Shown here: piece by piece, positions 1 through 9,829 of the stretch
How the letters are laid out: each line of letters begins with the position of its first letter
Position numbering within the stretch: the first letter of the stretch is position 1
NCBI GenBank assembly: GCA_964391015.1
Contig: CAYMKU010000001.1
Span: 148,805-212,804 of the forward strand
Reading direction: 5' to 3'
DNA from: an uncultured Ignavibacteriaceae bacterium
GTDB taxonomy: Bacteria; Bacteroidota; Ignavibacteria; Ignavibacteriales; Ignavibacteriaceae
DNA length: 64,000 nt
The notes under the pieces: model-generated
Databases searched by the model: none
What the model saw: only the letters and a program-made list of their open reading frames with translations
What the model was told of the DNA's origin: nothing
Made by a program: the position numbers and the translations under genes

Positions 1-960
1 AATGCTTAATGTTGTATGATTAGGATTTGTTGTCGAATTAAAATTATTTAGATGACAACTAACACATTGAGTTGACATTTGAGTATAGCCTGTTTGATGG
101 CAATTACTACAATTAACAGAGATGTGCGCTCCTGTTAACGGAAACTGCGTAGTGTTATGATCAAAACTTGCAGGCCTCCAATTTTGAATTACATGGCATT
201 GTTGACATTGTGTCGGGAAGTTGTTGCTTTGGTGAGGTGGATTTGAAGATGTTTCATAATCATTTCGATGACACGAATAACATGTTGTTGATAATCCCTT
301 GAAATTTCCTCCTTGTTCATGACACGAAAAACAATTCTGAATATTATGCCCGCCAACTAACGGGAAAAAATTATGCGCAAATATCTCAGCCGACCATTTG
401 CTCTGCAACATACTATGGCAATCCAAGCAGTTTGTAGAAAATCCCACAAGTGAATGATTTGGATTTTGAGTATTTCGGTATTCATTCTGATGACAATCTA
501 TACAGTTCACTCCTAAGGTCACAAAATTTAAATTCGGATAGCCCGCATGACACTCAATACAATCTGCCTTTAAATGTGAACCTATAAGCGGGAAACGACT
601 TTTCTGATGAAGTTCATTTCGATTTTCAATTAGCCATGTATCTGGTTTATGACATGATGAACAATCCAAGCCAACTGAATTTTGATGAACATCTTTATGA
701 CAAAAATTACAAGATGATTGCGCTTTAGAAAAAATCAAATCTGCATGACATGATGAGCAATTAATTGTGCTATGTTGTCCTGTCAATGAAAATCCTGTTT
801 CCGAATGATCAAAATTAATATGAGCAAGGTTTACCTTCCAATCAGTTGATTGATGACAATTTGCACAATCTAATCCCTTCAAGTCACCATGCGGCGATTG
901 ACCATAAATTGTCAAAACATTTATTGTTAAGACAATAATTATGAATGACAAGCTGCGCAT
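1..960 (-). CDS. multiheme c-type cytochrome, N-terminal part (gene continues past the left window edge)
   Basis: My own minus-strand translation gives ATG at 960-958 (MRSLSFIIIVLTINVLTIYGQSPHGDLKGLDCANCH...). It has a hydrophobic signal-like N-terminus and 12 CxxCH motifs before the edge. It is absent from the ORF track because no stop codon lies inside the window. Its start overlaps the stop of the upstream cytochrome gene by 22 nt. Confidence 0.85.
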   Translation of the reverse strand, partial: MRSLSFIIIVLTINVLTIYGQSPHGDLKGLDCANCHQSTDWKVNLAHINFDHSETGFSLTGQHSTINCSSCHADLIFSKAQSSCNFCHKDVHQNSVGLDCSSCHKPDTWLIENRNELHQKSRFPLIGSHLKADCIECHAGYPNLNFVTLGVNCIDCHQNEYRNTQNPNHSLVGFSTNCLDCHSMLQSKWSAEIFAHNFFPLVGGHNIQNCFSCHEQGGNFKGLSTTCYSCHRNDYETSSNPPHQSNNFPTQCQQCHVIQNWRPASFDHNTTQFPLTGAHISVNCSNCHQTGYTQMSTQCVSCHLNNFNSTTNPNHTTLSI

Positions 961-2585
961 TTAAAATCTTCCAATCTATATTTAATAAAGGTACTGCCGT
1001 TAACTGAAGTGGCTTTATGGCATTGATCACATTTTAGTTTTGAATGAGCGCCTTTAAGTGAGAACTTAGTTTGTTCATGGTCGAACTTTTCCGGTTTCCA
1101 ATTGAAATAAGAATGACATTTCATACAACTTGATGTTCCGTAAACATTAAACTGACCAAAGTGAACATCGCTGTGACAAGTTATGCACTCAGAATTAGAT
1201 GAAACAAATTTAAAAACCTTGCCATCATTAGTTTCAACAGTATGGCATTTTCCGCACCTCGCATTTTGGTGTTTTCCTTCAAGAGAAAAATCCGTTTGGG
1301 AATGATTAAAACTAATAGTATTCCAATTATCAGTAGTGTGACAAGATGTACATTTATGATCTGGAAGATATTTTTGAGTTAATTCGTTACCGTGAACATT
1401 TTTGTGACACTCAAAGCAATCATTTCCAATATTTCGAAAATGCCAGGATTCTTCTTTCATATGACAATTCTGACAAGGGAGCGCAAGATGTGAACCAGAT
1501 AAGATGAACTTAGTTTCATTATGCTGCTGAATAGTAAAAGTAGAAGGAACAAATCCTGATTCGTTATGACAAACTGAGCAATCCCTTATAGAAACTCCCG
1601 AAGTAAGCTCACCTTTATGATAATCAGCATGACAATCAATACATTTTTCATGCTTAAGTTTAGCTGATAAATTTGTCTTATGACAATCATTGCAACGAAC
1701 ACCTCTATGTTTACCAACTAAAGGAAAATTCGTTCTACTGTGATCAAAAGAACCCTGAGCAATTGAGTGGAATGAAGAAGTATTATGACAAGACTGACAA
1801 TCATTCCCAAATTTTCCCTTGTGAATATCTGTATGACATGATTGGCATGAAGTGAACACAATTCCTTTAAACCTTTGAATTTTTTTCCCGTTTCTTTTTT
1901 CACTCTGATGACATTTATTGCAATCCACCTTTTGGTGAGCGCCCGTTAATTTAAATTTGGTATCGTCATGTCTAAAATTAACAGCAGGTTGAAATTTTTC
2001 ATTCCCGTGGCACGTTTCACAATTACTTCCAAGAGTACTTTGGTGAACATCTTCATGGCATGAATAACAGTCAGTTCCCAATCCTAAATAGGAATGCTGT
2101 TTCTTCTTTGATAATTGTGTTTTAATAAATTTATTTTGATGACACTTATCGCATTTCTGATTTGAGTGCGCACCAATCAATTCAAATCCTGTTTTGTTAT
2201 GGTCAAATTTTTCAGAACTGAAATTAATGATGGAAAAACTCCTTCCGTTGTGTTCACTATGGCATTCAAAACAGTTCTTGGACTTTACACCGATATATGA
2301 ATGATAACCTCTTCCCTGTTCTTTCAATTTTTTTATTTCAGTATGACAATCCAAACACTTTGCATTAGTAACTTGTTCGCCTAAGACATGACATTTGGTG
2401 CAATTGCTCATTCCCTCAAGATTTGAATGGGCTTTTGTTAAATCGCCAGGTGATATTTGTGAATATGATTTCATATTAAAAATCAAAATCAAGAAGATAA
2501 TTTTTGATATCAGTACTCTGATGCTTTCTTGTCCTTGTCCGTTTAATATTGCTGGGAAAAACTTCACTAAACAAATAAATTTCAT
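939..2585 (-). CDS. multiheme c-type cytochrome (20 CxxCH motifs)
   Basis: I counted 20 CxxCH motifs in 548 aa. There is a hydrophobic N-terminal segment. A recurring module (F-D/N-H-x2-T-x-F-x-L-x-G-x-H ... CxxCH ... CxxCH-x-D-x-H ... CxxCH) resembles concatenated triheme c7/c3-type units. Confidence 0.9.
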   Translation of the reverse strand: MKFICLVKFFPAILNGQGQESIRVLISKIIFLILIFNMKSYSQISPGDLTKAHSNLEGMSNCTKCHVLGEQVTNAKCLDCHTEIKKLKEQGRGYHSYIGVKSKNCFECHSEHNGRSFSIINFSSEKFDHNKTGFELIGAHSNQKCDKCHQNKFIKTQLSKKKQHSYLGLGTDCYSCHEDVHQSTLGSNCETCHGNEKFQPAVNFRHDDTKFKLTGAHQKVDCNKCHQSEKRNGKKIQRFKGIVFTSCQSCHTDIHKGKFGNDCQSCHNTSSFHSIAQGSFDHSRTNFPLVGKHRGVRCNDCHKTNLSAKLKHEKCIDCHADYHKGELTSGVSIRDCSVCHNESGFVPSTFTIQQHNETKFILSGSHLALPCQNCHMKEESWHFRNIGNDCFECHKNVHGNELTQKYLPDHKCTSCHTTDNWNTISFNHSQTDFSLEGKHQNARCGKCHTVETNDGKVFKFVSSNSECITCHSDVHFGQFNVYGTSSCMKCHSYFNWKPEKFDHEQTKFSLKGAHSKLKCDQCHKATSVNGSTFIKYRLEDFKCAACHS

Positions 2586-2609
2586 GTGATAATTTCTTTG
2601 ACAAAATAT

Positions 2610-3941
2610 TCAGTGCTTTAGAATCGCTTCACCAAATTTTTTAGTGATTTTCACACCGATTTTATCCAGAAAAATTGTTGGCAATTCACCGCCTGCAAAA
2701 ATATAAACAAGATCATTTTTTATTTTTGTTAATTCTTTTTCACCAGTTCTTTCAATGATCACCAAGTCGTCATTAATTTCTTTAACATTAGAATTATAAA
2801 GTGCTTTTACTTTTCCATTCTTAATGTTTTCATTAACTCTTTCAAGATTCATAGGCTTCAATCTTGCAAAGCTTTCTCCTCTGTATGAGAGTGTAACACT
2901 ATTGTTTTCGTCTGCAAGCAGAATTGCTGCTTCAACAGCAGAATCACCACCGCCAACAACCAAAACATTTTGATTGTGGATTAACTCGGGTTCAAGCAAA
3001 CGATATGCAACTTTTTCTTTTTCTTCGCCGGGCACACCTAATTTTCTTGGTGACCCTCGCCTTCCAATTGTAAGAAGCACTGTTTGAGAGGTATAAACTC
3101 TTTTACTTGTTTTAATGACAAAATTTTCTTTTTGTTTTTCAATTGATTCAACTTTTTCCTGTTCATTAATAGTAATTTGATTTTTTGTTAATACAGAATG
3201 CCATAGTGTCAGCAGTTCTAACTTCGTTGTTTCAACAAATTTAATCCTACCGTGGAGTGGAAGGTCCATTGCAGAGGTCATCACGATTTTTGCACGAGGG
3301 AAATTGAATACTGTTCCACCTAATGAATCTTGCTCGATTGTTAAAAATTTTAATTTTAGCTTGGCAGCAGTAAGTGTAGCTGATATTCCAGCAGGTCCAG
3401 CACCAACAATAATAACGTCAAACTCCGCATCAGTTTTAGTTTTTAATTCTTTGGATAAATTCTGAACTGCCTGTTTTCCTTGCTCAACTGCATTTTTTAT
3501 TAATCCCATTCCTCCCAACTCACCTGCTATAAATAAGCCTCGAATGTTTGTTTCAAATTCGGAGGATACATGCGGCAGGTCAACTCCGCGTTTTTCAGTC
3601 CCAATGCACAATGAAATTGCCTGTACCGGACATGCATGAAAACAGGCGCCATGCCCAACGCACCGTGAAGCATTTATTGTCGTTGCTTTTCCGTTTACAA
3701 TTCCGATTATGTCTTTTTCAGGACATGCTTCAATACATGCACCGCTGCCGATACATGATTCTGTGTCTATGACAGGATGCAACGACATTGGTTCATGTAA
3801 CCCAAATTCCTTCGCTTTCTGAATTTTTTTAATATTAATTTCTGAAGTGTTTTTATGGCGTCTCAAATAAAAATAAAGTATAACAAAAATAATTACAGCT
3901 AAAACAGAATAGGTAATAATATTTTCAAGCATTACTTCCAT
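2610..3941 (-). CDS. membrane-anchored ferredoxin-domain / thioredoxin-reductase-type FAD-NAD(P) oxidoreductase fusion
   Basis: N-terminal TM helix followed by RRHK (positive-inside rule places the rest in the cytoplasm). Two ferredoxin-like motifs, CIGSGACIEACP and CVGHGACFHACP. Dinucleotide folds GAGPAGISA and VVGGGDSAVEAA. No CxxC redox disulfide in the TrxR-like part. Confidence 0.75.
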   Translation of the reverse strand: MEVMLENIITYSVLAVIIFVILYFYLRRHKNTSEINIKKIQKAKEFGLHEPMSLHPVIDTESCIGSGACIEACPEKDIIGIVNGKATTINASRCVGHGACFHACPVQAISLCIGTEKRGVDLPHVSSEFETNIRGLFIAGELGGMGLIKNAVEQGKQAVQNLSKELKTKTDAEFDVIIVGAGPAGISATLTAAKLKLKFLTIEQDSLGGTVFNFPRAKIVMTSAMDLPLHGRIKFVETTKLELLTLWHSVLTKNQITINEQEKVESIEKQKENFVIKTSKRVYTSQTVLLTIGRRGSPRKLGVPGEEKEKVAYRLLEPELIHNQNVLVVGGGDSAVEAAILLADENNSVTLSYRGESFARLKPMNLERVNENIKNGKVKALYNSNVKEINDDLVIIERTGEKELTKIKNDLVYIFAGGELPTIFLDKIGVKITKKFGEAILKH

Positions 3942-4134
3942 TTTGAGACAAAGAAATTTTTGATTTGTTTTTTAAATTTTGGAGAATATTTACTTCAATT
4001 ATCGTGCGATGGAAATGTAACAATTTCTCAAAATTCTTTAATTGATTTTTTACAATATCATTTCAATTAGTAATAATAACCTGTTATTATTACTTAAAGG
4101 AAACAATAGTTAATTATTATGAAGAATTTTAAAA

Positions 4135-4755
4135 TTAAAGTCTCAATAAAGATTTTTTTGCCATATCAGCAGAGGAAGAATTCGGTTGTTCCTTAATTAG
4201 CTCTTCCCATATTTCTTTCGCTTTATTCTTATTTCCCCTCAACGCATTTATCGCACCTAAATTGTACAGTGCTTGATGATCTTTGCTGTCTATCTTGAGA
4301 ATTTTATTGATGAATGTTTCTGCCTGATCAAATTCTTGTTTATTGTAGTAGATAAATGAGATAGAAAAAAGCGTTTCTTTATTCTGTGGATTTATTTTCA
4401 AAATCTTCTCATAAATTTTTATTGCCTCATCTAATTGATGTGCAGCAGCAAGGAAATCTCCGTAATCCTTCAACGCTTCTATATTATCAGGATTTTTCTC
4501 TGCCTTTATTTTCAAATCTTCCAATTGCTTTTTAAAATTTGGAGAAACATTCTCTTTGTTCGGAGGAGCTGATCCAAGATTGTTCAATCCGCTATGAATA
4601 CTGTCATGTGGCATTTCGTTTTTCATTTTTTCAGGATTGTTTGACATGGTTTTCTTATCTGAGGTCAGAAAAAACAATGATATACCGATAATAATCACTA
4701 ATGCACTATAAACGTAGATCAATTTAAAATTCATACTTCCTCCTAAAAAATCCAT
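4135..4755 (-). CDS. TPR-repeat protein with N-terminal membrane anchor
   Basis: Hydrophobic N-terminus (LIYVYSALVIIIGISLFFL) followed by TPR-like repeats (AIKIYEKILKINPQN, AETFINKILKIDSKD, YNLG). Overlaps the upstream gene by 13 nt. The start could instead be the second Met at 4734. Confidence 0.6.
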   Translation of the reverse strand: MDFLGGSMNFKLIYVYSALVIIIGISLFFLTSDKKTMSNNPEKMKNEMPHDSIHSGLNNLGSAPPNKENVSPNFKKQLEDLKIKAEKNPDNIEALKDYGDFLAAAHQLDEAIKIYEKILKINPQNKETLFSISFIYYNKQEFDQAETFINKILKIDSKDHQALYNLGAINALRGNKNKAKEIWEELIKEQPNSSSADMAKKSLLRL

Positions 4756-5618
4756 TTGTACCCGAATACAATGGTAACGATTACATGAATAATCATTATA
4801 CCAAACATAACTAAAGCAAAAGGTAAGTGAATTATATGCCAGTATCTAAAAAGCTTATGCATAATTCTTAACATACCAATTCTTCTGCTCAAAACAACTT
4901 TTGATTTAGCTAATTCTTTAATTCTTCTTCTTTTACTTTTTGTAATATTCATCTTATCAATTTCACGATAAATCTCTCGTAAAATTAAAATGGAACTAAA
5001 ATAATCTTTGAAAACCAAAATTATACTTTTTCCGAGCGAAGCATTTTTATAATGATCAAAGAAGTTTATGCTTTCTAATTTAGCAGTTATTTGACCATTT
5101 ATTCCAAACTCAGTTTTTAATCTTGAAGTCAAGTCAAAACTCATAGAATTCAAGTCTTCGATTTCCACTTCATTACCTTGAATTGAACGCGGAATTTGTA
5201 TATAAATAAACCGACCTATAACACCACTAAGCACAACTGCTGTCATACTCCAAAAACTAATTGATACAATTCCGCCAAATTTGAATGCGGTATGGTAAAG
5301 AACCAGTACAGGCCCGACAGAACACAAAAAGATGTGAAACTCCAACCAGTATTTTAAATAACCAAGCCCAAACAATTTCCGGTTCCTTTTTCTAATCATG
5401 TAAGACGCAACACCAAGTATCATCATTAAAGAACCGATTATACCTAATCCATGACCTATAACACCACTTGGCTTGAGCAAATTATGATCTGGATGGAAAA
5501 ACCTCTCTTCCATGGATGTGCCATAATATGAATAACCATTGATGAAAAAAAGAATTGTAACCACCAATCCTGTTATAACAAAAAACCAAACGTAAAGCAC
5601 GTGTAATTTATTATTCAA
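4743..5618 (-). CDS. integral membrane protein, putative di-heme b-type cytochrome
   Basis: Several hydrophobic helices. Two of them carry His pairs spaced exactly 13 residues apart (EFH-IFLCSVGPVLVLY-H and IIH-LPFALVMFGIMII-H). A charged cytoplasmic-looking insert lies between them. That it is a gene is fairly secure, but the function is inference. Confidence 0.55.
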   Translation of the reverse strand: MNNKLHVLYVWFFVITGLVVTILFFINGYSYYGTSMEERFFHPDHNLLKPSGVIGHGLGIIGSLMMILGVASYMIRKRNRKLFGLGYLKYWLEFHIFLCSVGPVLVLYHTAFKFGGIVSISFWSMTAVVLSGVIGRFIYIQIPRSIQGNEVEIEDLNSMSFDLTSRLKTEFGINGQITAKLESINFFDHYKNASLGKSIILVFKDYFSSILILREIYREIDKMNITKSKRRRIKELAKSKVVLSRRIGMLRIMHKLFRYWHIIHLPFALVMFGIMIIHVIVTIVFGYKWIF

Positions 5619-5741: not shown

Positions 5742-6044
5742 TTAAACTTCCAATTCGGTCAATACGGTATATTTTGTTGAATGGTTTTCTGTAAAATTTG
5801 CAATTTTATTTATGAGAATGTTGATCCGTTCATTTTGGTCATCTTCAAATTTTTCATAAGCTTCCATTGAGCTAAAAGTATAAATTTCTTGAAACTGATT
5901 TACTTTACCTTTTACTTCATAAACACTATAGTTTTCTAATCCTTCGGCTTTTAACAGATTCTTCAACTCACGAATTACACTTAAATAATCATCTCTCTTG
6001 TTTGGAATAATTTCATATTGAACTGAAAAAATCACTTTTGACAT
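5742..6044 (-). CDS. hypothetical small cytoplasmic protein (100 aa)
   Basis: Clean ORF with intergenic spacing on both sides. No motif I can name. Confidence 0.5.
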   Translation of the reverse strand: MSKVIFSVQYEIIPNKRDDYLSVIRELKNLLKAEGLENYSVYEVKGKVNQFQEIYTFSSMEAYEKFEDDQNERINILINKIANFTENHSTKYTVLTELEV

Positions 6045-6105: not shown

Positions 6106-6969
6106 TTAAAAATCTTTTAAATCGAATTCTCCGGAAAAAACAGTTTTTACTGGTCCAGAAAGGGCAACTTTCTCAAACCTCTCACCGATTCGTTGAAACT
6201 CTACAACAAGTTCATCATTCCCCTTTGTTATTATTTTAATCGGTGATTTCAAATTTTTAATCACGGATGCGATTATAGCTGCTGCAACTGAGCCTGTACC
6301 ACATGCAAGAGTTTCGTTTTCCACTCCTCGTTCATAAGTCCGTATATGCAATGTATCATTTTTAACCTGAATAAAATTTACATTTGCGCCAGATGGTAAA
6401 AAATCTTTGTGATACCTTATTTCTCTTCCGATTTCCGACACAGGAAAGTTTTCAATATTTCTATACCTGCTGTTCAAGTCTTTAGGATGTGCCAATACAT
6501 CCTCAATTTCAATTACTACGTGTGGTGAGCCAGTATCCGCAAAGTTTGATTTAATAAGCTGACTTGATGCTTTAATTCTAAAATTTAATTTAACTCTTGT
6601 AGGTGATTTAAGATCGAACCGTACTAATCCATTTTTTAATACTTCACCACTAAAAATTTCATCATTAGCATTAAATATTGCTTTAGCATTCTTAAATTTA
6701 TCCGAATCTGAGGCATACTGAATAGCACAACGCGCACCATTACCACACAAACTTCCCGAAGAACCATCAGAATTAAAATATTCCATTAAAAAATTGCTGC
6801 TTTTTGAGCTCGAAAGCATTATAACACCATCTGCACCAATACCCTTTCGACGATTACAGAGATTTATAATATTAGTTTTTGTGAAAGAAACAGTTTTATT
6901 TTTTGTTTTATCAATTACAATAAAATCGTTGCCGGCTCCATTCATCTTTGTAAATACTATCTTTTTCAC
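6106..6969 (-). CDS. dapF: diaminopimelate epimerase
   Basis: MNGAGNDFIVID N-terminus plus both catalytic-Cys motifs, CGNGARC and ACGTGSVAAA. The length of 287 aa is typical. Confidence 0.9.
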   Translation of the reverse strand: MKKIVFTKMNGAGNDFIVIDKTKNKTVSFTKTNIINLCNRRKGIGADGVIMLSSSKSSNFLMEYFNSDGSSGSLCGNGARCAIQYASDSDKFKNAKAIFNANDEIFSGEVLKNGLVRFDLKSPTRVKLNFRIKASSQLIKSNFADTGSPHVVIEIEDVLAHPKDLNSRYRNIENFPVSEIGREIRYHKDFLPSGANVNFIQVKNDTLHIRTYERGVENETLACGTGSVAAAIIASVIKNLKSPIKIITKGNDELVVEFQRIGERFEKVALSGPVKTVFSGEFDLKDF

Positions 6970-7996: not shown

Positions 7997-9145
7997 ATGT
8001 TAGCGGCAGATAAGTACAATTCAATCTTTTATGATATTTTAAGAAGTTGGTCTAATCCACTTATTCTAATTATTCTTTTGACGTTAGTGGTACTTGTAAT
8101 TATCTACTTTCTTAACCATTATCTTGTCAAACCATTAGAGCAAAAACATATTCAAGAAAAAAAAGATATCGAGCTAAAAAACAGCAAGTTAATGGCTCAG
8201 TTTGCAGAACTTGATCCTGATCCGGTTCTTAGAGTTGATCATGAAGGTAGAATAAATTTTTTCAATAACGCTGCATACTCTTTATTAAAAATCGAGCGCG
8301 ATGCACAAGTTACAAATGGTATCTTCGAAATTTCACTTGCCGAATTACAAAAAAAAATTGACTCAAATGAAAGTCATTCCTTCGGTTTCAAGTTCGATGG
8401 AGTTCATTACAATGTTTTGTTGAAAGGAAATTCTGATCTTGGAATTGCTCAATTTTATTTTCGTGATATTTCAGCAATAAAAAACCTGGAAATTAAATTG
8501 AAGCAGCTATCCACTTATTTACAAAATCAGATTGATGAAGAACGATTTCGAATTGCTCATGAATTGCATGATGGTATTGTTCAAGATCTATATTTTGTCC
8601 AACTAGGACTAAGGAAAATTACCGATGGATCCGTCGAAGCTATGGATGAATTGCTACAGCCAATTAAATCTCAACTTGAAAATACAACAGAAGAATTAAG
8701 GAGAATCATTTATGACCTTAAACCGAAAGTTCTTGAGGAAATGGGGTTAGAAGCAGCTCTAAAAACACTATGCAATAACATAATTAAAGAAAGCGGAATA
8801 TCCGGTAGTTTTCAAATTATCGGTGTGAATCAGAGATTGGATAAAAAACTTGAAATTTATTTTTATCGGCTTATTCAGGAAGCTTTGACTAACATCGTAA
8901 AACATTCAAATGCAAGTGAATTTAGCGTTATACTTGTAAAGGATGAAGATATTCTACGAACAATTATAACGGATAATGGATGCGGAATAATTAGTAATGA
9001 AAAAATTGAACAAAAAAACAGTGGCTTTGGATTGTTAAATATGAGAGAAAGAACCGAAGGACTCGGAGGTAAATTAAAAATTGATTCTTCCGAATTGAGT
9101 GGCTCAACAATAATAGCTGAAGTTCCTGTTTGGGAGGAATTATAA
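7997..9145 (+). CDS. sensor histidine kinase (HisKA_3 / NarX-DegS type) with TM and PAS-like region
   Basis: N-terminal TM helix. H-box HELHDGIVQDL, N-box EALTNIVKHSNA, G-boxes DNGCGI and GFGLLNMRERTEGLGG. Confidence 0.85.
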   Translation: MLAADKYNSIFYDILRSWSNPLILIILLTLVVLVIIYFLNHYLVKPLEQKHIQEKKDIELKNSKLMAQFAELDPDPVLRVDHEGRINFFNNAAYSLLKIERDAQVTNGIFEISLAELQKKIDSNESHSFGFKFDGVHYNVLLKGNSDLGIAQFYFRDISAIKNLEIKLKQLSTYLQNQIDEERFRIAHELHDGIVQDLYFVQLGLRKITDGSVEAMDELLQPIKSQLENTTEELRRIIYDLKPKVLEEMGLEAALKTLCNNIIKESGISGSFQIIGVNQRLDKKLEIYFYRLIQEALTNIVKHSNASEFSVILVKDEDILRTIITDNGCGIISNEKIEQKNSGFGLLNMRERTEGLGGKLKIDSSELSGSTIIAEVPVWEEL

Positions 9146-9148
9146 AAC

Positions 9149-9829
9149 ATGTTAAATCATACAATCAAAATCCTAATTTCAGATGATCACGAGCTTTTCC
9201 GCAAGGGAATCATCAGTCTTCTCCTCGATGAAAATAAAATTAAAATAGTTGGTGAAGCAAATGATGGAAAAGATTTGATATATAAATATTTTAAGTTGAA
9301 ACCTGATTTAGTCATAACCGACATATCCATGCCTGAATTATCGGGAATTGAAGCAGTACGCATTTTATCAGAGAAAGATTCAAATGCGAAAGTCATATTT
9401 TTATCTATGTACGGCGGTGAGGATTACATATACCATTGTATTAAATCCGGTGGATCAGGATTAATACATAAAAATGTTTCCAAGCAAGAATTACTTCACG
9501 CCATTGAGATGGTATCAAAGGGTAAAAAGTATTTTGGGGGTGAGTATTCTGAAGAACAAATTGAGCAGCTTATCCAAGATTACGAAGCGCATTCACACAA
9601 TCATATTTCAGCAGGGATAGATTTACTAACAAACAAGGAGATGGAAGTACTTTCATTGCTTGCCGATGGGCTTACCAACAATGAGATAGCCGAAAAAATG
9701 TATATAAGCAGAAGAACTGTAGAAACTCATAGGTCTAATATTATGGAAAAATTGAATCTAAAATCCTCCCCTCAATTAATAAAATATGCAATTTCAGTCC
9801 ACGAAACTTTTAAAAAGAAAAATCTTTGA
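9149..9829 (+). CDS. response regulator, NarL/LuxR-family DNA-binding
   Basis: Receiver domain (ISDDHELFRKG, VITDISMPELSG) and C-terminal LuxR HTH (LTNKEMEVLSLLADGLTNNEIAEKMYISRRTVETHRSNIMEKL). Starts 3 nt after the kinase gene. Confidence 0.9.
   Translation: MLNHTIKILISDDHELFRKGIISLLLDENKIKIVGEANDGKDLIYKYFKLKPDLVITDISMPELSGIEAVRILSEKDSNAKVIFLSMYGGEDYIYHCIKSGGSGLIHKNVSKQELLHAIEMVSKGKKYFGGEYSEEQIEQLIQDYEAHSHNHISAGIDLLTNKEMEVLSLLADGLTNNEIAEKMYISRRTVETHRSNIMEKLNLKSSPQLIKYAISVHETFKKKNL

What the first reader, a model, noticed from the sequence alone, without database searches (positions are those of the whole stretch)
1..5618. Candidate trans-membrane electron conduit linking a cytoplasmic Fd/FAD-NAD(P) module to 32 or more periplasmic c-hemes
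Five co-directional minus-strand genes, tightly packed apart from one 193-nt gap (3942-4134): (1) a membrane protein with two H-x13-H helices; (2) a TPR protein overlapping it by 13 nt; (3) after the gap, a TM-anchored protein whose ferredoxin-like and TrxR-like FAD/NAD(P) domains should face the cytoplasm (RRHK follows the anchor); (4) a 20-heme cytochrome; (5) a cytochrome with at least 12 hemes whose start overlaps the previous stop by 22 nt. Inference: the domain inventory (NAD(P)H/FAD dehydrogenase plus a di-heme membrane bundle) resembles a NOX/ferric-reductase-type architecture split into separate polypeptides and extended by a long periplasmic multiheme wire. That would suit extracellular or periplasmic metal or electrode respiration, or electron uptake in the reverse direction. 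I do not recognise this combination as a described named system. The window edge also cuts the module, so outer-membrane components may lie further left.
Basis: inference. Interest (0 to 1): 0.62.

Follow-up and report, generated by a model that had tools for sequence, protein, structure and literature searches.

The report
NAD(P)H-linked porin-cytochrome (PCC3-type) electron conduit
An activated-sludge Ignavibacteria genome encodes what looks like a complete electron wire, running from a cytoplasmic NAD(P)H-flavin-iron-sulfur enzyme through a two-heme membrane protein and two giant multi-heme cytochromes to the cell surface; four parts match the published but functionally untested 'PCC3' system, and the cytoplasmic enzyme is a conserved partner not described for it.

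Summary
The five minus-strand genes are a membrane protein (MEM), a TPR protein, a TM-anchored ferredoxin/FAD-NAD(P) enzyme (FDOX), a 20-heme cytochrome and a cytochrome cut by the window edge. The order MEM-(TPR)-FDOX-20-heme MHC-long MHC is conserved in nearly all of 80 Ignavibacteria species loci. A ~540-aa putative outer-membrane protein follows, lying just beyond the window edge.

MEM has no Pfam family. It matches the motifs published for the inner-membrane protein of the predicted porin-cytochrome complex "PCC3" (He et al. 2017): about 300 aa, 5 TM helices, W-x3-H-x13-H on TM3 and TM5, and SGxxG on TM4. The four His are conserved down to 30% identity. Relatives give weak, consistent hits to the heme-b families DUF4405, Ferric_reduct and Ni_hydr_CYTB.

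So the cluster is a PCC3-type conduit, not an undescribed system. What I did not find described is FDOX. It stays linked to MEM in two gene orders across contigs of 31-73% GC and on a plasmid of the cultured Emticicia oligotrophica. Short proteobacterial MEM relatives pair with an unrelated FNR-type NAD-FAD-[2Fe-2S] reductase.

Best reading: a quinone-independent, split-NOX-like export of NAD(P)H electrons to extracellular acceptors. No experiment supports it yet.

The parts
4743..5618 (-). MEM: 291-aa inner-membrane protein with 5 TM helices and a ~110-aa cytoplasmic helical insert between TM4 and TM5. Predicted di-heme-b transmembrane relay, matching the PCC3 'IMP' type.
   Evidence: ORF. 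AF2 model with 107 sequences: pLDDT 89, pTM 0.81, helices 3-33, 53-78, 88-109, 117-141, 227-284. W91-x3-H95-x13-H109, S131-G-x-x-G135 and W260-x3-H264-x13-H278 are conserved. These are the motifs given for PCC3/PCC4 IMPs in PMC5566968. Sub-threshold DUF4405, Ferric_reduct and Ni_hydr_CYTB hits occur in relatives.
5292..5336 (-). TM3 heme-ligand pair His95 ... His109 (H-x13-H).
   Evidence: Read from the sequence. His109 is invariant and His95 at least 90% conserved in 107 sequences.
4785..4829 (-). TM5 heme-ligand pair His264 ... His278 (H-x13-H), preceded by invariant Trp260.
   Evidence: All three are invariant in 107 sequences.
4135..4755 (-). Membrane-anchored TPR protein (206 aa; probable start at 4734). 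Optional accessory, possibly a CcmI/NrfG-like apocytochrome chaperone.
   Evidence: TPR families; PF23914 TPR_CcmH_CycH scores 34 bits against a cut-off of 42; weak NrfG hit. Present between MEM and FDOX in 48 of 69 loci and absent in 21.
3942..4134 (-). 193-nt AT-rich intergenic gap between the TPR gene and FDOX.
   Evidence: Promoter and terminator scans found nothing above the shuffled background. The length of this gap varies in relatives.
2610..3941 (-). FDOX: N-terminal TM anchor, two-cluster ferredoxin domain, and a YpdA/TrxR-like FAD + NAD(P)H domain. Predicted cytoplasmic electron donor to MEM.
   Evidence: Pfam Pyr_redox_3 4e-48 and Fer4 families. Closest solved structures are YpdA/Bdr 7A76 and 7A7B. 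Motifs; conservation in 75 homologues.
3627..3755 (-). FDOX iron-sulfur motifs: C63-x2-S66-x2-C69-x3-C73-P and C94-x2-H97-x2-C100-x3-C104-P.
   Evidence: Cys and His97 are invariant in 75/75 homologues and Ser66 in 71/75. The same motifs occur in Emticicia.
2937..3404 (-). FDOX dinucleotide motifs: GAGPAG (FAD, residues 180-185) and GGGDSA (NAD(P)H, residues 330-335).
   Evidence: In the alignment to YpdA, GGGPCG corresponds to GAGPAG, so YpdA's Cys14 is Ala here.
939..2585 (-). MHC20: secreted 20-heme c-type cytochrome built from c7-like modules. Predicted periplasm-spanning wire, the counterpart of the PCC3 periplasmic MHC.
   Evidence: 20 CxxCH motifs, 27 aa per heme. Cytochrome_C7 matched in 7 stretches. 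A 20-CxxCH MHC follows MEM or FDOX in most loci across 31-73% GC.
1..960 (-). MHC2, 5' part: long repeat-built multiheme cytochrome cut by the window edge. Predicted outer-membrane or extracellular wire.
   Evidence: 12 CxxCH in the window; at least 27 in at least 693 aa on L001. Relatives carry 16-46 hemes, or 40-73 in other phyla, and are followed by the ~540-aa putative outer-membrane protein.
5742..6044 (-). 100-aa ORF between dapF and MEM. A conserved neighbour in Ignavibacteriaceae, not part of the core module.
   Evidence: 56-73% identical upstream of MEM in most Ignavibacteriaceae loci, but absent in Melioribacter-type and other loci that keep the module. No family hit.

Best explanation
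The window holds the inner-membrane and periplasmic half of a PCC3-type, envelope-spanning electron conduit.

Proposed path:
1. NAD(P)H is oxidised in the cytoplasm by FDOX, which is anchored by one TM helix and carries FAD and two Fe-S clusters. One cluster has an invariant His ligand.
2. Electrons cross the inner membrane through two stacked b-hemes in MEM. One heme would be held by His95/His264 near the cytoplasm, the other by His109/His278 near the periplasm.
3. They enter the 20-heme cytochrome, which is long enough to bridge the periplasm.
4. They leave through the long repeat-built cytochrome, threaded through or docked on the ~540-aa outer-membrane protein encoded just beyond the window edge.
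5. They reach an extracellular acceptor such as Fe(III)/Mn(IV) minerals, humics, electrodes or partner cells.

The TPR protein is an optional helper, probably for maturing these very large cytochromes.

The logic is that of a NOX/ferric reductase split into separate polypeptides, with a TrxR-fold flavoprotein plus ferredoxin in place of the FNR-fold domain. Because electrons move outward with the membrane potential and bypass quinones, the pathway would vent reducing equivalents rather than pump protons.

Shown: gene content, conservation, motifs, synteny. Inferred: cofactor binding, topology, the FDOX-MEM contact, the direction of flow and the acceptor.
For: Synteny in Ignavibacteria:
- FDOX lies within 1.2 kb downstream of MEM in 69/73 species loci, MHC20 follows in 62/65, and the putative outer-membrane protein in 47/51.

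The same parts in other lineages:
- They recur in two gene orders, MEM-FDOX-MHC20-MHCn-POR and MEM-MHC20-MHCn-POR-FDOX, on metagenome contigs of 31-73% GC. By my reading of the table, 12 of the 14 loci with 8 kb downstream carry FDOX.
- MEM relatives of about 30% identity are still linked to FDOX.
- A complete copy, preceded by a fused ccsBA gene, lies on plasmid pEMTOL02 of the cultured Emticicia oligotrophica.

MEM as a di-heme relay:
- The four His, both Trp and SGxxG are conserved in 107 sequences.
- The AF2 model is confident and shows 5 TM helices.
- At E<=0.01, 28, 11 and 6 of 107 relatives hit DUF4405, Ferric_reduct and Ni_hydr_CYTB, against 1-2 for any unrelated family.
- The Ferric_reduct match covers TM2-TM3, and the DUF4405/Ni_hydr_CYTB matches cover TM5.
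- The motif set is the one published for PCC3/PCC4 IMPs.

FDOX as an electron-transfer enzyme:
- FAD and NAD(P) motifs are intact.
- There is no CxxC, and YpdA's Cys14 is replaced by Ala, so it is not a disulfide reductase.
- The TM anchor has acidic residues before it and basic residues after it.

An independent parallel:
- Short MEM relatives on proteobacterial plasmids are preceded, with overlapping stop and start, by a TM-anchored FAD_binding_6 + NAD_binding_1 + Fer2 reductase, and followed by a heptaheme cytochrome.
- So a MEM-type protein is paired with a different NAD(P)H-flavin-FeS enzyme. This is what is expected if the partner's job is to feed it electrons.
Against: - There are no experimental data, and no RNA runs were found.
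- The window's own MEM gives no Pfam hit. Relatives' hits are all below gathering scores.
- Foldseek with the confident model found nothing in the PDB, with the best E-value 0.8. hhalign against E. coli MsrQ was not significant at E 0.2.
- I could not measure His-His geometry in the model or run a multimer prediction, so the FDOX-MEM contact rests on gene linkage alone.
- The beta-barrel nature of the ~540-aa protein is unproven. It has no family, and a crude strand-alternation statistic gave z of about 1.5.
- The PCC3 papers I read describe four genes without FDOX and propose a quinone-reactive IMP. Two Ignavibacteria loci have MEM without FDOX.
- Exporting electrons from NAD(P)H costs membrane potential, so the physiological benefit is an inference.
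Confidence: 0.55

Rival explanations
1. Quinol-fed PCC3, the published model. MEM is a quinone-reactive cytochrome b that exchanges electrons between the menaquinone pool and the periplasmic MHC. FDOX is not its direct donor: it could be an NAD(P)H:quinone reductase feeding the pool locally, or an unrelated neighbour.
For: He et al. 2017 proposed this for the PCC3/PCC4 IMPs. Ni_hydr_CYTB-type and cytochrome bc-type di-heme proteins are quinone-reactive (established knowledge), and 6-23 MEM relatives hit Ni_hydr_CYTB weakly. The Sideroxydans PCC3 clusters are described as four genes without FDOX.
Against: FDOX keeps its linkage to MEM through two different gene orders and a wide GC range. An unrelated NAD(P)H-flavin-FeS reductase occupies the same position beside short MEM relatives. 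No quinone-site motif was identified, though none was specifically searched for.
Confidence: 0.22
2. Inward electron uptake. The conduit takes electrons from Fe(II), cathodes or partner cells, and FDOX reduces NAD(P)+ or a ferredoxin-like acceptor in the cytoplasm.
For: PCC3 was first found in Fe(II) oxidisers and proposed for electron uptake. Multiheme conduits are reversible in principle.
Against: Inward flow runs against the membrane potential, and from Fe(II)-range donors to the NAD(P)+ couple at about -320 mV it is strongly uphill with no coupling site visible (inference from standard potentials). Ignavibacteria are known as fermenters, as Fe(III)/As(V)/nitrate reducers and as anode-biofilm members. 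PCC3 in S. lithotrophicus ES-1 was down-regulated on Fe(II).
Confidence: 0.08
3. Maturation or maintenance role. MEM, FDOX and TPR supply reductant or handle heme for assembling the giant cytochromes, in the manner of a CcdA/DsbD-type or CcsBA-type function, rather than carrying respiratory current.
For: The TPR protein resembles CcmI/NrfG-type TPR domains. FDOX's closest solved relatives are thiol-disulfide flavoenzymes. In Emticicia a ccsBA gene lies directly upstream.
Against: MEM has no conserved Cys pair and no WWD motif; its invariant residues are four TM His plus Trp and Gly. FDOX lacks both the TrxR CxxC and YpdA's Cys14. The TPR gene is absent from 21 of 69 loci while MEM and FDOX stay.
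Confidence: 0.05
4. Periplasmic or surface detoxification. The chain reduces toxic metals or oxidants at the envelope and is not a catabolic electron sink.
For: The short proteobacterial MEM relatives lie in copper and heavy-metal resistance islands, and their reductase has a Met/His-rich N-terminal segment.
Against: The window-type clusters have no resistance genes nearby. Their cytochromes of 16 to 73 hemes and the outer-membrane protein point to long-range transfer beyond the cell.
Confidence: 0.06

Closest known systems
PCC3, the predicted porin-cytochrome c complex 3 (He et al. 2017, PMC5566968; Hoover et al. 2023, PMC10734462)
   Same: Same parts list: a ~300-aa inner-membrane protein with 5 TM helices, SGxxG on TM4 and W-x3-H-x13-H on TM3 and TM5; a periplasmic MHC of about 21 hemes proposed to span the periplasm; a second MHC with a large and variable heme count; and an outer-membrane protein. 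The low ratio of amino acids per heme (26-27 here) and the repeat-built sequence also match.
   Different: PCC3 was described in Alpha-, Beta- and Gammaproteobacteria as four genes, with a quinone-linked model and Fe(II) oxidation in mind. Here the host is Ignavibacteria, and relatives include Bacteroidota, Krumholzibacteriia and Schekmanbacteria. A fifth conserved gene (FDOX) and an optional TPR gene are present. Sequence homology to the reference proteins Slit_0867-0870 could not be tested.
NOX / ferric reductase (FRD domain, PF01794) and the split MsrQ-Fre system of E. coli
   Same: Two bis-His b-hemes on TM3 and TM5 with H-x13-H spacing, N-terminus inside, and electrons passing from a cytoplasmic NAD(P)H flavoenzyme to the outer face. 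MsrQ-Fre is a precedent for a NOX split into two proteins (own knowledge; PMC5566968 makes the FRD comparison). There are weak Ferric_reduct hits over TM2-TM3.
   Different: MEM has 5 TM helices rather than 6, a 110-aa insert in the TM4-TM5 loop, and does not reach the Pfam threshold. The dehydrogenase has a TrxR/YpdA fold plus a two-cluster ferredoxin domain, not an FNR fold. The acceptor is a multiheme cytochrome chain, not O2, Fe(III) chelates or MsrP.
Hmc/Tmc-type transmembrane complexes of sulfate reducers
   Same: A periplasmic multiheme cytochrome, a membrane cytochrome b and a cytoplasmic Fe-S protein encoded together, moving electrons across the inner membrane without an obligatory quinone step (own knowledge). 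MHC20 gives a weak NCBIfam hit to HmcA.
   Different: The membrane and cytoplasmic subunits belong to different families (NarI/HdrE-like and HdrD-like in Hmc/Tmc). Those complexes have no flavoprotein, no outer-membrane part, and the usual direction is inward.
MtrCAB and Geobacter Pcc (OmbB-OmaB-OmcB) with their inner-membrane quinol dehydrogenases (CymA, ImcH, CbcL, CbcBA)
   Same: Overall purpose and layout: periplasmic plus extracellular MHCs and an outer-membrane sheath.
   Different: Those pathways start from menaquinol oxidation by NapC/NirT-type or bc-type cytochromes. None of those families is in this cluster. The I. album pcc cluster published by Shi et al. 2014 (IALB_1837-1840; 14-heme, 400 aa) does not match the gene sizes found here, so it is probably a different locus.
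YpdA/Bdr bacillithiol-disulfide reductase and TrxR-type ferredoxin-NADP+ reductases
   Same: The FDOX flavin domain aligns over about 265 residues with YpdA structures 7A76 and 7A7B (E 4e-34), with intact FAD and NAD(P)H motifs.
   Different: The score is far below the TIGR04018 cut-off (179 against 340). Cys14 is Ala and there is no CxxC. FDOX also has an N-terminal TM anchor and ferredoxin domain.

Membership tests
PCC3 cluster (He et al. 2017) | Inner-membrane protein of about 300 aa with five TM helices | tested here: met
   291 aa. The AF2 model (pLDDT 89) has five membrane-length helices. Hydropathy agrees.
PCC3 cluster (He et al. 2017) | Two W-x3-H-x13-H motifs, on TM3 and TM5 | tested here: met
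   W91/H95/H109 and W260/H264/H278. All are invariant or at least 90% conserved in 107 sequences. Definition.
PCC3 cluster (He et al. 2017) | SGxxG motif on TM4 | tested here: met
   S131-G132-V-I-G135. G135 is invariant; S131 and G132 are at least 90% conserved.
PCC3 cluster (He et al. 2017) | Adjacent periplasmic MHC with about 21 hemes | tested here: met
   20 CxxCH and a signal peptide. 20 CxxCH in most relatives. Periplasmic location is inferred.
PCC3 cluster (He et al. 2017) | Second (extracellular) MHC with a large, variable heme number | tested here: met
   At least 27 CxxCH on L001, and 16-73 in relatives. Extracellular location was not tested.
PCC3 cluster (He et al. 2017) | Outer-membrane beta-barrel porin gene in the cluster | tested here: inconclusive
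   The gene is not in the window because of the edge. A ~540-aa secreted protein ending in an invariant ...RF follows MHC2 in 47/51 relatives. It has no Pfam or PDB match, and the strand-alternation statistic was not significant. No structure-prediction quota was left.
PCC3 cluster (He et al. 2017) | Sequence homology to the reference proteins (S. lithotrophicus Slit_0867-0870) | not testable with these tools
Ferric reductase / NOX transmembrane domain (PF01794) | Reaches the Pfam gathering score | tested here: not met
   The window protein gives no hit. Relatives score 16-20 bits against a cut-off of 28. 11/107 relatives hit at E<=0.01.
Ferric reductase / NOX transmembrane domain (PF01794) | Bis-His heme ligands on TM3 and TM5 | tested here: met
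   Heme binding itself was not tested.
Ferric reductase / NOX transmembrane domain (PF01794) | Six TM helices with an FNR-fold FAD/NADPH dehydrogenase | tested here: not met
   MEM has five TM helices. The partner here has a TrxR/YpdA fold. An FNR-fold partner occurs only beside the short proteobacterial relatives.
YpdA/Bdr (TIGR04018) | Score above the family cut-off and the active-site Cys in GGGPCG | tested here: not met
   179 bits against 339.9. GAGPAG, Ala in 72/75 and Ser in 3/75 homologues.
Thioredoxin reductase (TIGR01292) | Redox-active CxxC in the NADPH domain | tested here: not met
   All seven Cys lie at residues 63-112, in the ferredoxin domain. Score is 104 against a cut-off of 343.
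CcmI/CycH/NrfG-type TPR (PF23914) | Reaches the gathering score | tested here: inconclusive
   34 bits against a cut-off of 42, E 3e-8. NrfG E 6e-8, far below its cut-off.

The most novel reading that the evidence does not exclude
FDOX-MEM is a widespread, previously unrecognised two-protein 'prokaryotic split NOX'. It injects cytoplasmic NAD(P)H electrons directly, without quinones, into a periplasm-spanning 20-heme cytochrome. This would make it the missing inner-membrane entry point of PCC3-type conduits in the FCB group and other phyla. It would define a fourth kind of inner-membrane EET gateway besides the NapC/NirT-type, the ImcH-type and the bc-type (Cbc) quinol dehydrogenases. MEM-family proteins would be generic adaptors that accept electrons from interchangeable NAD(P)H-flavin-FeS reductases, either the TrxR fold with [4Fe-4S] clusters or the FNR fold with [2Fe-2S].
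Probability: 0.4. Interest if true: 0.8.

Novelty: new variant of a known kind. Interest (0 to 1): 0.6.

Why it matters
PCC3 has been in the literature since 2017 as a large, widespread, predicted electron conduit with no tested function and no known cytoplasmic connection. Its inner-membrane protein is still annotated 'hypothetical' and has no Pfam family.

A conserved, membrane-anchored NAD(P)H-flavin-FeS partner gives a concrete and falsifiable model for where the electrons come from. If correct, some bacteria can wire cytoplasmic NAD(P)H straight to the outside of the cell without using the quinone pool. That would be a mode of redox balancing relevant to fermentative Ignavibacteria and Bacteroidota in sludge, sediments and anode biofilms, and a compact five-gene module for engineering electroactive strains.

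The copy on an Emticicia oligotrophica plasmid puts the module in a cultured isolate where experiments could be attempted.

Tried and rejected
Tried, with no useful result:
- AF2 of MEM with 34 close homologues gave a poor model (pLDDT 67) and meaningless Foldseek hits. This was fixed by using a 107-sequence alignment.
- Foldseek against the PDB with the good model: best E-value 0.8.
- A profile of 63 MEM sequences against PDB sequences matched only coiled-coil noise on the cytoplasmic insert.
- hhalign of the MEM profile against the single E. coli MsrQ sequence gave E 0.2, not significant. It did align H264/H278 with MsrQ H151/H164.
- The putative porin had no Pfam, NCBIfam-independent or PDB match, and a crude beta-strand alternation test gave z of about 1.5.
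- The promoter and terminator scan was at background level.
- No RNA-seq runs were found.
- An exact-protein look-up of the 256-aa alternative MEM call found nothing.
- Literature searches on Melioribacter/Ignavibacteria EET, on 20-heme cytochromes, on DUF4405 with multiheme, on the Desulfuromonadia cytochromome, on peat EET clusters and on Desulfobacterota EET pathways turned up no description of the MEM-FDOX pairing.

Considered and rejected:
- FDOX as a thioredoxin or bacillithiol-disulfide reductase, because it lacks the catalytic Cys residues.
- MEM as a CcdA/DsbD-like or CcsA-like protein, because it has no Cys pair and no WWD motif.
- Identity with the published I. album pcc cluster IALB_1837-1840, because the gene sizes do not fit.
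- The 100-aa ORF and dapF upstream as module members, because they are lost in Melioribacter-type loci.
- P0142, an apparent MEM-cytochrome-FDOX fusion, as evidence. It looks like a frameshifted or chimeric gene call.

Full report
**1. What is in the window**

The region has about 32% GC.
- MEM, 4743-5618, 291 aa.
- A TPR protein, 4135-4755, 206 aa.
- A 193-nt gap.
- FDOX, 2610-3941, 443 aa.
- A 548-aa cytochrome with exactly 20 CxxCH motifs, 939-2585.
- A second cytochrome, 1-960, with 12 CxxCH, cut by the window edge.

A Logan contig identical to the window (L001, from an activated-sludge run) extends the second cytochrome to at least 693 aa and 27 CxxCH, still without a stop. These are the only heme-motif ORFs in the 64 kb. 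MEM homologues are labelled Ignavibacteriaceae or Ignavibacteriales.

**2. The module is conserved and continues past the window edge**

I examined 80 loci, one per GTDB species, all Ignavibacteria including Melioribacter-type genomes:
- FDOX starts within 1.2 kb downstream of MEM in 69 of 73 loci with room.
- The TPR gene lies between them in 48 of those 69 and is missing in 21.
- The 20-heme cytochrome follows in 62 of 65.
- A ~540-aa protein follows the second cytochrome in 47 of 51.

The second cytochrome varies from 16 to 46 hemes (421-1136 aa), while the first nearly always has 20. The closest relative with a full cluster is L082, with 75% MEM identity.

The ~540-aa protein has a signal peptide, no hydrophobic helix, and a composition rich in Ser, Asn, Thr, Tyr and Gly. 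It ends in an invariant ...Arg-Phe. That fits an outer-membrane barrel, but it matched no Pfam or PDB family, and my crude strand test was not significant. 'Porin' therefore remains an inference.

**3. MEM**

MEM gives no Pfam or NCBIfam hit. Its family is large: 2,648 clusters at 50% identity with E<=0.001.

In 107 sequences, down to 27% identity, the conserved positions are as follows:
- Invariant: H109, H264, H278, W260, G59, Y73, G135.
- At least 90% conserved: H95, W91, H261, S131, G132, R136, Y139, P143.

A first AF2 run with close homologues was poor. A run with the diverse alignment gave pLDDT 89 and pTM 0.81. It shows five membrane helices and a ~110-residue helical insert between TM4 and TM5.

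Basic residues cluster after TM2 (RKRNRK) and in the insert. This gives an N-in, C-out topology, with H95 and H264 toward the cytoplasm and H109 and H278 toward the periplasm. That is my reading of the sequence, and it is the geometry of a two-heme transmembrane relay.

Scanning family members one by one against Pfam gave recurrent sub-threshold hits to three heme-b membrane families:
- DUF4405: 28 of 107 at E<=0.01, best 5.7e-6.
- Ferric_reduct: 11 of 107.
- Ni_hydr_CYTB: 6 of 107.
- Any unrelated family: 1-2.

The Ferric_reduct match covers TM2-TM3, and the DUF4405 and Ni_hydr_CYTB matches cover TM5. Foldseek, a PDB sequence profile and hhalign against E. coli MsrQ gave nothing significant.

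**4. This is the published PCC3 architecture**

He et al. 2017 (PMC5566968) defined 'PCC3' as a cluster encoding four parts:
- a porin;
- an extracellular MHC (median 34 hemes);
- a periplasmic MHC (median 21 hemes);
- a conserved ~300-aa inner-membrane protein with five TM helices, SGxxG on TM4 and W-x3-H-x13-H on TM3 and TM5.

They compared the inner-membrane protein to the ferric-reductase domain and proposed that it carries two b-hemes and talks to the quinone pool. MEM fits every listed motif (section 3), and the neighbouring genes fit the parts list.

Later papers keep the four-gene description. They model the 21-27-heme cytochrome as spanning the periplasm and state that the function is unverified. 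In S. lithotrophicus ES-1 the clusters were down-regulated on Fe(II).

I could not fetch the Sideroxydans reference proteins, so membership rests on motifs and architecture, not on direct sequence comparison.

**5. FDOX is the part I did not find described**

None of the PCC3 papers read, and none of the other searches, mentions a ferredoxin/FAD-NAD(P) protein in these clusters. The linkage is nevertheless robust:
- I scanned 80 metagenome loci chosen around a distant, high-GC MEM relative. Their GC ranges from 31% to 73%. MEM is followed by a 20-CxxCH cytochrome almost everywhere.
- FDOX is either directly after MEM or at the far end after the putative porin. By my reading of the table, 12 of the 14 loci with 8 kb downstream contain it.
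- Named relatives include Bacteroidota, Candidatus Krumholzibacteriia and Candidatus Schekmanbacteria.
- A complete copy lies on plasmid pEMTOL02 of the cultured Emticicia oligotrophica DSM 17448. It comprises fused ccsBA, MEM (46% identity), FDOX, a 23-heme MHC, a 40-heme MHC and a 538-aa protein.

**6. What FDOX is**

- Residues 1-28 form one TM helix, with Glu residues before it and RRHK after it. There is no twin-arginine motif, so the cofactor domains should be cytoplasmic (inferred).
- The flavin domain aligns with YpdA/Bdr structures (E 4e-34) and has GAGPAG and GGGDSA dinucleotide motifs.
- YpdA's catalytic Cys is Ala here, and there is no CxxC. All seven Cys lie in the ferredoxin domain. 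It is therefore an electron-transfer flavoprotein, not a disulfide reductase.
- The two cluster motifs are unusual and conserved: CxxSxxCxxxCP (Ser in 71/75) and CxxHxxCxxxCP (His in 75/75).
- From general knowledge, a His-ligated [4Fe-4S] is typical of the 'distal' exit cluster in hydrogenases, and a three-Cys motif often means [3Fe-4S]. Both would suit a downhill hand-over to heme. This point is a lead, not a result.

**7. An independent parallel**

Short MEM relatives occur on proteobacterial plasmids in copper and heavy-metal islands (Qipengyuania citrea, Methylophaga pinxianii). They are 241-252 aa and about 25% identical to MEM, with H-x13-H on TM3, W-x3-H-x13-H on TM5, and SGxxG.

Each is immediately preceded by a 612-659-aa protein. 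This has a Met/His-rich N-terminal part, one TM helix, and FAD_binding_6 + NAD_binding_1 + Fer2 domains. Each is followed by a heptaheme cytochrome.

So a different, non-homologous NAD(P)H-flavin-FeS reductase sits beside the same kind of membrane protein. That is what one expects if MEM-type proteins are fed from cytoplasmic NAD(P)H. It is also literally the NOX-type (FNR-fold) dehydrogenase encoded as a separate polypeptide.

**8. Mechanism and direction**

I propose this path: NAD(P)H to FAD, to two Fe-S clusters (FDOX), to two b-hemes (MEM), to 20 c-hemes across the periplasm, to the long cytochrome at the outer membrane, to an external acceptor.

In NOX structures the cytoplasmic loops between TM2-3 and TM4-5 dock the dehydrogenase (own knowledge). 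In MEM the TM4-5 loop is expanded into a conserved helical platform, which would suit docking a separate enzyme.

Outward electron movement goes with the membrane potential and starts from about -320 mV, so it is favourable. The reverse direction, from Fe(II)-range donors, is strongly uphill with no coupling device in sight. The pathway would therefore dissipate rather than build proton-motive force. It would act as an electron vent that lets a fermenter re-oxidise NAD(P)H. This fits reports of Ignavibacteria rich in large MHCs in anode biofilms. This paragraph is inference.

**9. The TPR protein**

It is anchored by one helix. It scores below threshold on the CcmH/CycH TPR family and on NrfG and is dispensable. 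In Emticicia its place beside MEM is taken by a cytochrome-c biogenesis gene. A role as a chaperone for maturing 20- to 40-heme apocytochromes is the simplest reading. A structural adaptor role is not excluded.

**10. Rivals**

- The published quinone-linked model for the IMP remains the main alternative. It cannot be excluded without biochemistry, and it could even coexist with an FDOX input.
- Inward uptake, a maturation role and envelope detoxification are less likely, for the reasons given in the rival entries.

**11. Verdict**

The cluster is a new lineage and variant of a known, predicted kind (PCC3). Its conserved extra component changes the mechanistic model and makes it testable.

My confidence, by claim:
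- That this is a PCC3-type envelope conduit: about 0.85.
- That MEM is a di-heme relay: about 0.8.
- That FDOX feeds it directly and electrons flow outward: about 0.55.

Noticed in passing
window 3627-3755 (FDOX residues 63-105): Both ferredoxin motifs lack the second Cys. They read CxxSxxCxxxCP and CxxHxxCxxxCP, with His97 invariant in 75/75 homologues and Ser66 in 71/75. This suggests one His-ligated [4Fe-4S] cluster and one [3Fe-4S] or Ser-ligated cluster.
   Followed up: partly
L171 9929-13773 (Qipengyuania citrea plasmid NZ_CP098496.1); L172 10073-13850 (Methylophaga pinxianii plasmid NZ_CP095734.1): In copper and heavy-metal resistance islands there is a four-gene set: a protein with a Met/His-rich N-terminus, one TM helix and FAD_binding_6 + NAD_binding_1 + Fer2 domains; a short MEM-like di-His membrane protein; a heptaheme cytochrome c; and a DUF1622 protein. 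It looks like a separate, smaller 'split NOX to cytochrome c' system, possibly for periplasmic metal reduction.
   Followed up: partly
L170 8899-21483 (Emticicia oligotrophica DSM 17448 plasmid pEMTOL02, NC_018749.1): The whole module (MEM, FDOX, a 23-heme MHC, a 40-heme MHC and the 538-aa putative outer-membrane protein) is plasmid-borne in a cultured Bacteroidota isolate. It is preceded by a fused 1028-aa CcsB-CcsA cytochrome-c biogenesis gene and followed by a GW-domain protein. This hints at horizontal transfer as a self-sufficient unit.
   Followed up: partly
window 1-960 and L001 6720-8800: From residue ~134 on, the CxxCH spacing in the long cytochrome repeats as roughly 15-19, 23-25 and 32-35 residues. 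That is a ~73-aa three-heme unit repeated about nine times. The heme count in relatives (16 to 73) probably varies by gain and loss of this unit.
   Followed up: partly
window 5742-6044 and 6106-6969: A 100-aa ORF with no family hit is conserved (56-73% identity) between dapF and MEM across Ignavibacteriaceae. It is absent from Melioribacter-type and non-Ignavibacteria loci. Its function is unknown.
   Followed up: partly
L003 19676-20722; L075 17134-18180; L088 11712-12758: A 348-aa PHP-domain protein follows the putative porin gene in 33 of the loci (67-100% identity to one another). It is unclear whether it belongs to the module.
   Followed up: no
window 4743-5618: The public gene call for this protein (P0001, 256 aa) starts at an internal codon and loses TM1. 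The TTG start at 5618 is supported by the conserved N-terminus (MNKxLH..., His6 invariant among Ignavibacteria).
   Followed up: yes
P0142 (418 aa, metagenome protein): An apparent fusion of the MEM N-terminal half, a cytochrome-like segment and the FDOX C-terminal half from a high-GC organism. It is most likely a frameshifted or chimeric gene call, not a natural fusion.
   Followed up: no
L035 and L065 (Ignavibacteriaceae loci): These two loci have MEM plus the TPR gene but no FDOX, MHC20 or porin within 8-10 kb. They may be a second paralogous copy or a rearranged cluster.
   Followed up: no
window 7997-9829: A sensor histidine kinase (382 aa) and a 226-aa ORF lie on the opposite strand, about 2.4 kb upstream of MEM beyond dapF and an 85-aa ORF. 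The pair did not appear beside the cluster in the relatives whose upstream genes were listed.
   Followed up: no
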